Virus record (IMG/VR): IMGVR_UViG_3300023174_006147
Location: 20,475 to 84,474 of that record
Strand: one strand, 5' to 3'
Length of the DNA: 64,000 nt
From: a virus
Positions 44,131 through 44,396 of the stretch are shown here, in pieces. The notes below the pieces were generated by a model. It saw only the letters and a list, made by a program, of their open reading frames with translations, did not search any database and was not told where the DNA came from. Every line of letters starts with the position of its first letter. The first letter of the stretch is position 1. Made by a program: the position numbers and the translations under genes.

Positions 44131-44161
44131 TAAAAAACCCCGGAAATTTCTTCCCGGGGTA
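44131..44161 (-). terminator. Attenuator terminator
   Basis: ACCCCGGGAA-GAAA-TTTCCGGGGT-TTTTTATT. Confidence 0.88.
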
Positions 44162-44194
44162 CTTTAAATTTGATTTTGGATTTTTATTTCCTCA

Positions 44195-44332
44195 TCAAAC
44201 TTGCGTACCCCCATCAAATGCTGTAGGGACATTGCGATTATATGATAGTTGACCAATCGCATGCCATTCAACGGACAAGCCGTTAAAGCATTCTTTAGCT
44301 ATTCTATCAAAATTTCGTTCGGTCTTAAGCAT
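44195..44332 (-). CDS. 45-aa leader peptide containing all 20 amino acids
   Basis: SD GAAGGAAG; MLKTERNFDRIAKECFNGLSVEWHAIGQLSYNRNVPTAFDGGTQV; TGA TGA. Confidence 0.75.
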   Translation of the reverse strand: MLKTERNFDRIAKECFNGLSVEWHAIGQLSYNRNVPTAFDGGTQV

Positions 44333-44367
44333 TTGAATTTAAACTTCCTTCGTTTCTTACTGTTCGA

Positions 44368-44396
44368 ATTGTACTCTTATTTAGCAATGCTGTCAA
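44368..44396 (-). promoter_or_regulatory. Sigma70 promoter of the leader and tRNA array
   Basis: TTGACA-N17-TACAAT; a second TTGACA..TATAAT lies at ~44447-44475. Confidence 0.8.

What the first reader, a model, noticed from the sequence alone, without database searches (positions are those of the whole stretch)
44131..44396. Pan-tRNA-sensing attenuator: an all-20-amino-acid leader peptide gating the tRNA array
Seen on the minus strand: promoter TTGACA-N17-TACAAT, an SD, then a 45-codon ORF (44332-44195) encoding all 20 amino acids by codon 36. It uses 35 distinct codons, including three different codons each for Leu, Arg, Thr, Ala and Gly and both ATA and ATT. Its last codons (GGGGTAC..AAGTTTGAT) can pair with ATCAAATTT..GTACCCC, which is also the 5' strand of a strong terminator (ACCCCGGGAA-GAAA-TTTCCGGGGT-U tract). 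Known: this mutually exclusive geometry is that of trp/his/pheST-type ribosome-dependent attenuators, but those leaders are enriched in one amino acid. Inference: a ribosome finishing the peptide blocks the antiterminator and transcription stops. A stall at any codon (an uncharged or anticodon-nuclease-cleaved host tRNA) would allow read-through into the phage RNA and tRNA genes, making this a general tRNA-pool damage sensor. Caveat: internal promoters (~43835-43861, 41327-41355, 36952-36980) mean it may gate only the proximal part of the array.
Basis: partly seen in the sequence, partly recalled or inferred. Interest (0 to 1): 0.93.

Follow-up and report, generated by a model that had tools for sequence, protein, structure and literature searches.

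The report
Leader-ORF terminator switch before phage tRNAs
At the head of the tRNA gene array of an uncultured lake-water phage, a conserved cassette holds two strong promoters, a 45-codon mini-gene and an RNA hairpin that competes with a transcription terminator; it probably ties transcription of a downstream structured RNA and the first tRNAs to how well ribosomes translate, but the idea that it was built to sense all 20 amino acids is not supported by its relatives.

Summary
That covers P2, a Shine-Dalgarno-like AAGGAAG, the 45-codon ORF (20 amino acids, 35 codons), the hairpin whose 5' arm holds the last codons and the stop, and the terminator. The cassette is conserved in five metagenomic loci, always at the head of a tRNA array, and the peptide forms a small family of nine distinct sequences. 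The antiterminator competes with the terminator far better than chance (0 of 600 shuffles). A ribosome at codons 38 to stop always restores the terminator in folding models. A promoterless structured RNA follows, and one metatranscriptome contig crosses the terminator. My best reading (about 0.45) is a translation-sensing attenuator that works like the whiB7 uORF switch.

The pan-tRNA part is weak. Cys is missing in 4 of 9 peptides. Twenty amino acids occur in 1-4% of null windows. Codon diversity is ordinary once the peptide is given. Whether any stalled codon gives read-through depends on the model assumptions. Strong promoters downstream feed most tRNAs independently.

Two rivals remain: a small protein gene with a leaky terminator, or an untranslated structured RNA. 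This scan noted similar leader switches on other phage DNA.

The parts
44447..44475 (-). Promoter P1, TTGACA-N17-TATAAT (12 of 12), conserved in all homologues
44368..44396 (-). Promoter P2, TTGACA-N17-TACAAT (11 of 12), conserved
44344..44350 (-). Shine-Dalgarno-like AAGGAAG; AAGGAA is invariant in the homologues, and AAGGA ends 13 nt before the ATG (long for this phage)
44195..44332 (-). 45-codon leader ORF (stop TGA at 44197-44195); open and 45 codons long in all five DNA homologues; peptide family of 43-45 aa
44235..44317 (-). H1, a long hairpin spanning codons 6-33; its apex hairpin (44285-44269) has compensatory changes
44209..44228 (-). H2 (regions 1:2), CCCUACA / UGAUGGGG, a possible anti-antiterminator; one covarying pair; not distinctive against random sequence
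44156..44211 (-). Antiterminator hairpin (regions 2:3): GGGGUAC-GC-AAGUUUGAU ... AUCAAAUUU-AAA-GUACCCC; the stop codon lies in its 5' arm and it shares ACCCC with the terminator
44132..44160 (-). Intrinsic terminator (regions 3:4): ACCCCGGGAA-GAAA-UUUCCGGGGU plus a U tract
43878..44124 (-). Promoterless structured RNA ('type A'), the first thing transcribed after read-through; 9 compensatory pairs against L005; no Rfam family
43397..43577 (-). tRNA-Tyr(GTA) and tRNA-Lys(CTT), the only tRNAs between the terminator and the next strong promoter (43387-43359)

Best explanation
This is a ribosome-dependent transcription attenuator that reports general translation status. Host RNA polymerase starts at P1 or P2 and transcribes a 45-codon leader ORF whose last eight codons and stop codon form the 5' arm of an antiterminator hairpin.

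If a ribosome has reached codon 38 or beyond by the time the polymerase reaches the U tract, that arm is covered. The shared ACCCC segment then pairs into the terminator and the transcript ends at about 44132. If the ribosome is late, stalled or absent, the antiterminator forms first. Transcription then runs on into a promoterless structured RNA, a 59-codon ORF, tRNA-Tyr and tRNA-Lys.

**Shown:** the sequence elements, their conservation, the non-random competition between the two hairpins, and the effect of a ribosome footprint in folding models.

**Inferred:** that the ORF is translated, that termination responds to translation, and the direction of the response when there is no translation.
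For: 1. The cassette (P1, P2, SD, ORF, hairpin, terminator) is conserved at about 87% identity in five loci. In the four loci long enough to show what follows it stands ahead of tRNA genes (L004 ends about 60 nt past the terminator), while the gene upstream and the RNA downstream differ.
2. With regions 2-4 alone, P(terminator) is 0.27-0.43, and 0 of 600 shuffles goes as low. In growing-transcript folds the antiterminator is complete before the terminator's 3' arm emerges.
3. A ribosome footprint with the A site at codons 39 to stop gives P(terminator) of 1.00 (about 0.6-0.7 at codon 38). At codons 32-37 the antiterminator wins. Both results hold in all five homologues under both masking models.
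4. For translation: ATG, AAGGAA, frame, length and stop are invariant. On the tip branches synonymous changes are in excess (11.8 synonymous against 12.2 non-synonymous, P=0.003 against neutrality). The more distant family members of 43 and 44 aa show that length changes kept the frame.
5. Nucleotide-level constraint fits a dual role. Twenty-six of 45 codons are invariant, including fourfold-degenerate sites in the G and C runs. Hairpins show compensatory changes that alter the peptide radically.
6. There is no consensus promoter between the terminator and the covarying structured RNA.
7. A 403-nt contig from a lake metatranscriptome, from a relative, runs from the P1 region to 71 nt past the terminator.
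8. The mechanism has a tested precedent in the whiB7 uORF attenuator (PMC10274678).
Against: - AAGGA ends 13 nt from the ATG, against 5-8 nt for most genes of this phage, so initiation may be weak.
- The branch between the two clades has 14 non-synonymous against 2 synonymous changes, and between-clade dN/dS is 0.6-1.8. Protein-level constraint is therefore patchy.
- All homologues were found through peptide searches, so copies with a broken ORF would have been missed.
- RNAalifold finds one static fold in which H2, part of H3 and the terminator coexist, so no switch is strictly required.
- The putative 1:2 hairpin is not distinctive.
- The outcome for early stalls and for no translation flips with the model.
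- The G and C runs never vary, so the switch itself shows no covariation.
- Perfect consensus promoters at 41355, 38851 and 36980, and a near-perfect one at 43387, serve most tRNAs independently.
- The RNA contigs cannot show 3' ends or levels.
Confidence: 0.45

Rival explanations
1. This is an ordinary small phage protein gene. ORF45 encodes a functional 45-aa early protein made from two strong promoters. The hairpins stabilise the mRNA, and the terminator is simply leaky enough to let the downstream RNA be made at a fixed ratio.
For: - The peptide family has invariant residues in members only 48-60% identical: A12 K13 E14, W23 H24, Y31 N32 R33 N34, P36 T37, G41 G42 T43.
- Replacements are conservative (V/I, V/L, L/M/I, A/S).
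- Synonymous changes are in excess on the tip branches.
- A static fold with an intact terminator exists.
Against: - No Pfam or PHROG family matches.
- AlphaFold2 gives one low-confidence helix (pLDDT 63).
- Compensatory RNA changes override the peptide: C15G, N17G, E22V, A38Q, F39G.
- Invariant synonymous sites sit exactly in the G and C runs.
- The invariant P36-T37 and G41-G42-T43 coincide with RNA regions 1 and 2.
- The hairpin overlaps the terminator non-randomly.
- The Shine-Dalgarno spacing is poor.
Confidence: 0.25
2. This is an untranslated structured RNA, either a small RNA or a factor- or ligand-sensing leader of the riboswitch kind. The ORF is incidental. H1-H3 form a fold that is the product itself or that binds a factor which sets the terminator/antiterminator balance.
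For: - The fold is strong (z = -4.5).
- 97.9% of cells are paired, with a covariation score of 0.170 against 0.108 in shuffles (0 of 500).
- Twenty-six invariant codons include degenerate sites.
- First codon positions change most between the clades.
- The Shine-Dalgarno spacing is poor.
- Two promoters plus a terminator is typical small-RNA anatomy.
- All homologues were found through peptide searches, which favours open frames.
Against: - Synonymous changes are in excess on the tip branches (P=0.003).
- The CTG/TTA Leu and AGC/AGT Ser exchanges preserve the amino acid.
- ATG, stop and frame are kept in nine distinct sequences, with in-frame length changes.
- No Rfam family matches, T-box and riboswitches included, even at E up to 10.
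Confidence: 0.15
3. This is the first reader's specific version, nested within the attenuator reading. The leader is kept by selection as a pangram of all 20 amino acids and many codons. Shortage or cleavage of any tRNA then stalls the ribosome and switches on the phage's own RNA and tRNA genes.
For: - All nine distinct family peptides have 19 or 20 amino acids in 43-45 residues.
- The single-copy residues W, H, Y and P never vary.
- Cys sits at position 15 in one clade and at position 2 in P0006.
- L005 has 39 codons (P=0.003 given its peptide).
- With the 5' RNA free, stalls at most of codons 4-37 favour the antiterminator; L003 at codons 26-30 and L004 at 18-20 are exceptions.
- The first tRNAs behind the switch are Tyr and Lys. 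From my own knowledge, these are known targets of anticodon nucleases.
Against: - Cys is absent in 4 of 9 peptides, including the cluster seen on most contigs (P0008, 16 contigs).
- The all-20 state is a 1-4% event, and this ORF was picked out of 68 ORFs of similar size.
- Codon number is ordinary given the peptide in 4 of 5 homologues.
- No case was seen where loss of a last copy was made good elsewhere.
- With the 5' RNA occupied, only codons 32-37 matter.
- Most tRNA genes have their own perfect promoters.
Confidence: 0.15

Closest known systems
whiB7 / wblC uORF transcription attenuator of mycobacteria and other Actinobacteria (PMC10274678)
   Same: - A short upstream ORF precedes a rho-independent terminator. 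Efficient translation gives termination; poor translation gives an antiterminator and read-through.
- The peptide is long and diverse. In M. smegmatis it has every amino acid except Cys, and it senses many different starvations.
- Loss of the start codon raises read-through, as the free-RNA model predicts here.
   Different: - There is no sequence relationship.
- The host is a phage, not Actinobacteria.
- The output here is a structured RNA and tRNA genes, not a transcription factor with positive feedback.
- There is no alanine enrichment.
- Nothing here has been tested experimentally.
Leader-peptide attenuators of enterobacterial amino-acid operons (trpL, hisL, leuL, pheL; multivalent thrL, ilvL), from textbook knowledge
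   Same: - A promoter-proximal short ORF is followed by G/C-rich segments that can pair 1:2, 2:3 or 3:4.
- The stop codon lies next to or inside segment 2.
- An intrinsic terminator precedes the regulated genes.
   Different: - There is no run of codons for one amino acid.
- The leader is longer (45 codons) and sits inside a large covarying hairpin.
- The 1:2 element is not distinctive, so the no-translation state may be read-through rather than super-attenuation.
- The Rfam His_leader match is only the terminator (24 bits against a cut-off of 49).
Stable small RNAs encoded inside phage tRNA clusters (for example the two extra stable RNAs of the phage T4 tRNA region), from my own knowledge
   Same: Structured non-tRNA RNAs are co-transcribed with phage tRNA genes. 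Here these are the type A and type B RNAs behind the terminator.
   Different: No sequence or Rfam relationship was found. Those RNAs are not known to lie behind a leader-ORF switch.

Membership tests
Ribosome-dependent (leader-peptide) transcription attenuator | Short ORF with translation start signals between the promoter and the regulated genes | tested here: met
   ATG at 44332 and AAGGAAG at 44350-44344 (ATG and AAGGAA invariant in five homologues). Caveat: AAGGA ends 13 nt before the ATG.
Ribosome-dependent (leader-peptide) transcription attenuator | Intrinsic terminator upstream of the regulated genes | tested here: met
   A 10-bp stem with 6 G-C pairs, a GAAA loop and a U tract at 44160-44132; conserved.
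Ribosome-dependent (leader-peptide) transcription attenuator | Antiterminator mutually exclusive with the terminator | tested here: met
   The ACCCC segment is shared. P(terminator) is 0.27-0.43 against a median of 0.998 in shuffles, with 0 of 600 as low. The minimum-free-energy and centroid folds differ.
Ribosome-dependent (leader-peptide) transcription attenuator | Ribosome position on the ORF decides which hairpin forms | tested here: met
   This is a folding model only. Codons 39 to stop give terminator 1.00 (about 0.6-0.7 at codon 38), and codons 32-37 give the antiterminator, in all five homologues. Earlier codons depend on the model.
Ribosome-dependent (leader-peptide) transcription attenuator | Regulatory codons enriched for the amino acid that is sensed | tested here: not met
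   There are 20 amino acids and no run of any one; the commonest are Gly and Asn, four each. The whiB7 type does not require this feature.
Ribosome-dependent (leader-peptide) transcription attenuator | The ORF is translated, and read-through responds to stalling | not testable with these tools
   Only indirect evidence exists: synonymous excess on the tip branches (P=0.003) and one RNA contig that crosses the terminator.
whiB7/wblC uORF attenuator (as a homologous family) | Lies upstream of a whiB7/wblC gene in Actinobacteria, with an Ala-rich uORF | tested here: not met
   The context is phage and the downstream genes are RNAs. The peptide has three Ala. It works like this family but is not a member.
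T-box or other Rfam leader or riboswitch | Match to the family's covariance model | tested here: not met
   Nothing reaches a gathering score. The best match is His_leader, 24.2 bits against 49, covering the terminator only. There is no T-box match at E up to 10.
Known phage or cellular small-protein family | Match to a Pfam or PHROG profile, or a confident fold | tested here: not met
   No Pfam hit, and PHROG E-values of 0.15 or worse. AlphaFold2 mean pLDDT is 63, a single helix.

The most novel reading that the evidence does not exclude
The leader is a translation-capacity gauge that the phage uses as a damage alarm. When a host defence cleaves tRNAs or otherwise slows decoding of any of the roughly 35 codons in the leader, the ribosome fails to reach codon 38 in time. 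The pre-formed antiterminator then lets polymerase from two consensus promoters run into a novel structured RNA and replacement tRNA-Tyr and tRNA-Lys. The invariant Tyr-Asn-Arg-Asn codons just upstream of the switch would be the most sensitive positions.
Probability: 0.15. Interest if true: 0.9.

Novelty: new variant of a known kind. Interest (0 to 1): 0.6.

Why it matters
Leader-peptide attenuation is textbook for amino-acid operons, and a generalist form is known for whiB7. My three literature searches found no published case in which a phage puts its own RNA or tRNA genes behind such a switch.

If real, it would show that large phages measure the host's translation status in cis and adjust their tRNA or ncRNA output. 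That is directly testable with a small reporter. It bears on why phages carry tRNA arrays and how they answer tRNA-targeting defences.

The cassette also marks the start of a novel, clearly covarying 250-nt RNA of unknown function.

Tried and rejected
**Searches that found nothing or too little**
- GenBank phages: no DNA or peptide relative.
- IMG/VR: only one related contig, by four different queries.
- GTDB genome contigs: none.
I therefore could not fetch DNA for the distant peptides P0006, P0009 and P0010. The key covariation test of regions 2-4 remains undone.
- The long repetitive proteins P0004, P0005 and P0007 from the representative search are spurious matches to low-complexity repeats.

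**Family and copy checks**
- Rfam at permissive thresholds gives only sub-threshold matches to the terminator.
- There is no second copy of the cassette in the 84-kb contig.

**Ideas considered and dropped**
- A trp-like 1:2 anti-antiterminator (CCCUACA/UGAUGGGG). It restores the terminator in models, but 13-35% of random sequences do the same, so I do not rely on it.
- A long-range pairing of the Shine-Dalgarno region (GGAAGUUU) with the terminator's 3' arm (AAAUUUCC). It appears in full-length folds of the window, L003 and L006 but not clearly in L004 or L005. I treat it as unproven.
- An opal-suppressor link. Two tRNAs with anticodon UCA exist, but TGA is a normal stop in this contig (14 of 67 long ORFs).

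**RNA runs**
- Parts of the stretch without cover in the RNA runs say nothing.
- The X1 piece at 44144-43994 has only 13 letters upstream of the end of the U tract, so it does not count as bridging.
- The wastewater runs X3 and X4 are probably DNA and hold only a relative of the type A RNA and tRNA-like pieces.

I replaced it with mononucleotide shuffles.

Full report
**Context**

The window is 64 kb of an 84.5-kb contig with 38% G+C. It carries 41 or more tRNA genes, all on the minus strand. It also encodes an Hsp70 and other phage-like genes, and its long ORFs end at all three standard stop codons. No cultured or GenBank phage is related at this locus. The relatives are metagenomic contigs of 1.7 to 93 kb, and the peptide family reaches a 360-kb contig.

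**Observation**

- P2 at 44396-44368.
- AAGGAAG at 44350-44344.
- A 45-codon ORF at 44332-44195, with 20 amino acids by codon 36 and 35 distinct codons.
- The pairing GGGGUAC..AAGUUUGAU with AUCAAAUUU..GUACCCC.
- The terminator ACCCCGGGAA-GAAA-UUUCCGGGGU followed by a U tract.

Two things were missed. A second, perfect consensus promoter (P1, 44475-44447) lies upstream. AAGGA ends 13 nt before the ATG, whereas most genes of this phage have 5-8 nt.

**Conservation**

The peptide has no relatives outside a small family of five clusters at 90% identity, nine distinct sequences of 43-45 aa. DNA was obtained for five loci: the window, L003, L004, L005 and L006 (L007 has the same ORF).

The whole block from P1 to the terminator is about 87% identical. 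The gene upstream differs, and the RNA downstream comes in two unrelated forms: type A in the window and L005, and type B in L003, L004, L006 and L007. In the four loci long enough to show it the block stands ahead of the tRNA genes; Tyr and Lys follow in the window, L003 and L005, Lys in L006 and L007, and L004 ends too soon to tell. It behaves as a module that heads the array.

**RNA structure**

The region folds far better than shuffles (z = -4.5). RNAalifold and a pair count on five sequences give 57 pairs with 97.9% of cells paired. The covariation score is 0.170, against 0.108 in shuffles (0 of 500 reach it) and at most 0.081 for slid controls.

The compensatory changes lie in three places:
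- The apex hairpin inside the ORF (AACGG/CCGUU, GGAGG/CCUCU, GGGGG/CCCCU).
- The top of H2.
- The terminator top.

These changes alter the peptide radically (C15G, N17G, E22V, A38Q, F39G). Twenty-six of 45 codons are invariant at every position, including fourfold-degenerate sites in CCU ACA, GGG GGU ACG and GUU. RNA-level selection is therefore clear.

**Is the ORF translated?**

For translation:
- The frame, length, ATG and stop are kept in all sequences.
- The distant members differ by in-frame length changes.
- On a five-taxon parsimony tree the tip branches carry 11.8 synonymous against 12.2 non-synonymous changes (P=0.003 against neutral expectation).

Against translation:
- The branch between the clades carries 1.8 synonymous against 14.2 non-synonymous changes.
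- Between-clade dN/dS is 0.6-1.8.
- The Shine-Dalgarno spacing is long.
- All homologues were found through peptide searches, which cannot find broken copies.

There is no Pfam or PHROG match, and AlphaFold2 gives only a low-confidence helix. I put translation at roughly two in three.

**The switch**

With regions 2-4 alone the terminator's pairing probability is 0.27-0.43. Shuffles of the upstream 50-62 nt give a median of 0.998, and none of 600 goes as low. In growing-transcript folds of the free RNA the full antiterminator is in place before the terminator's 3' arm has emerged.

I modelled a ribosome footprint at each codon:
- With the A site at codons 39 to stop the terminator is certain (about 0.6-0.7 at codon 38). 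With it at codons 32-37 the antiterminator wins. Both hold in all five homologues and in both models.
- For earlier codons and for free RNA the answer depends on the 5' part. If everything 5' of the ribosome is occupied, the G run pairs with CCCU of codons 36-37 and the terminator forms.
- If the 5' part is free, the start region pairs with codons 38-40 and the Shine-Dalgarno region pairs with the terminator's 3' arm. The antiterminator then wins for free RNA and for most stalls at codons 4-37 (L003 at codons 26-30 and L004 at 18-20 are exceptions).

The 1:2 element is not statistically distinctive. RNAalifold also finds one static fold in which H2, GUAC:GUAC and the terminator coexist. The G and C runs never vary, so the switch itself could not be tested by covariation.

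**What it would gate**

No consensus promoter lies between the terminator and a 247-nt RNA at 44124-43878. That RNA has 78 predicted pairs and nine compensatory pairs between just two sequences, and no Rfam family. It is followed by:
- A weak promoter (43861-43833).
- A 59-codon ORF.
- tRNA-Tyr and tRNA-Lys.

A near-perfect promoter then follows at 43387, and perfect promoters lie further on at 41355, 38851 and 36980. The switch can therefore control only the proximal products.

**Expression**

In one lake metatranscriptome a 403-nt contig of a type-B relative runs from just upstream of the P1 -10 box to 71 nt past the terminator. In another, 151-nt pieces identical to the window cover the ORF, and separately the terminator's 3' arm plus 138 nt of the type A RNA. 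These show that the block is present in RNA libraries and, in the first, that a contig crosses the terminator. They cannot give 3' ends or levels.

**The pan-tRNA claim**

- Twenty amino acids occur in 1.1% of 45-codon windows of the phage's own genes, 0.9% of all open windows, and 3.9% of shuffles of the ORF's letters. This ORF is the only one of 68 ATG-ORFs of 40-50 aa with all 20.
- Thirty-five codons is extreme against gene windows (0.04%). Given the peptide it is ordinary (P 0.42 and 0.13). Only L005, with 39 codons, stands out (P 0.003).
- Four of nine family peptides lack Cys, including the cluster seen on most contigs.
- I saw no case where a lost last copy of an amino acid was replaced elsewhere.

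High diversity is therefore a family trait. Selection for completeness is not shown.

**Comparison with the known**

The whiB7 uORF attenuator is a tested exception:
- Efficient uORF translation gives a rho-independent terminator, and poor translation gives an antiterminator.
- The M. smegmatis uORF has every amino acid except Cys.
- Removing Trp or His from it removes the response to that starvation.
- Loss of the start codon raises expression (PMC10274678).

The cassette here works like that system on paper but is unrelated in sequence, host and output. My literature searches found no phage tRNA-array attenuator in print.

Earlier notes of this scan describe similar all-amino-acid leader switches before phage tRNAs on other DNA. 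They are not look-alikes of this sequence. I used them only as the lead to the whiB7 paper.

**Verdict**

- The attenuator geometry is real, conserved and non-random.
- The most likely function is a translation-status attenuator (0.45). The deliberate pan-tRNA design is a minority sub-case (0.15).
- A small protein gene with a leaky terminator (0.25) and an untranslated structured RNA (0.15) remain open.

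Noticed in passing
window 43878-44124 (-); L005 3212-3462: A promoterless structured RNA ('type A') of about 247 nt sits directly behind the terminator. 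It has 78 predicted pairs, and 9 are compensatory between only two sequences about 90% identical. No Rfam family matches. A relative turns up in wastewater runs behind a similar terminator with a different loop.
   Followed up: partly
L003 3205-3450; L006 3205-3400; L004 1640-1687: In other relatives the same leader cassette is followed by an unrelated structured RNA ('type B', about 170 nt, starting GUGGAAAGCGGAACGAGGCUGCGAGUAACCAC). A few changes look compensatory. No Rfam family matches.
   Followed up: partly
window 43826-43647 (-), promoter-like 43861-43833: A conserved 59-codon lysine-rich ORF (MYKKTAKSQARNLLKKHNYMP...). Its ATG lies about 7 nt after the -10-like TAAAGT, so the mRNA may be leaderless. 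It is conserved in L005, and a similar ORF sits in L006. No Pfam family matches.
   Followed up: no
window 34046-34117 and 36458-36528 (-): Two short tRNAs with anticodon UCA, which ARAGORN calls SeC. They may be opal suppressors, yet TGA ends 14 of 67 long ORFs in this contig.
   Followed up: partly
window 44475-44447, 41355-41327, 38851-38823, 36980-36952 (-): Four perfect 12-of-12 sigma-70 consensus promoters (TTGACA-N17-TATAAT) lie within 8 kb of the tRNA region. Two more at 44396 and 43387 match 11 of 12.
   Followed up: no
window 54635-56521 (-): A full-length Hsp70/DnaK homologue (Pfam HSP70, E = 1.8e-258) is encoded on the phage contig.
   Followed up: no
window 44441-44397 (-), between P1 and P2: The stretch between the two promoters begins with TGGTGCATAAGTTAGCA(A/G)ATGC, which is invariant in all homologues apart from the one A/G position and is more conserved than the ORF. 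No function is assigned.
   Followed up: no
window 43134-43316 (-): A 60-aa ORF with a lipoprotein-like signal sequence (MKNLFTIAAIAALATLAAC...) sits inside the tRNA array, behind the promoter at 43387. The same start (ATGAAGAATCTCTTTACTATTGCTGCTG) is seen in L001.
   Followed up: no
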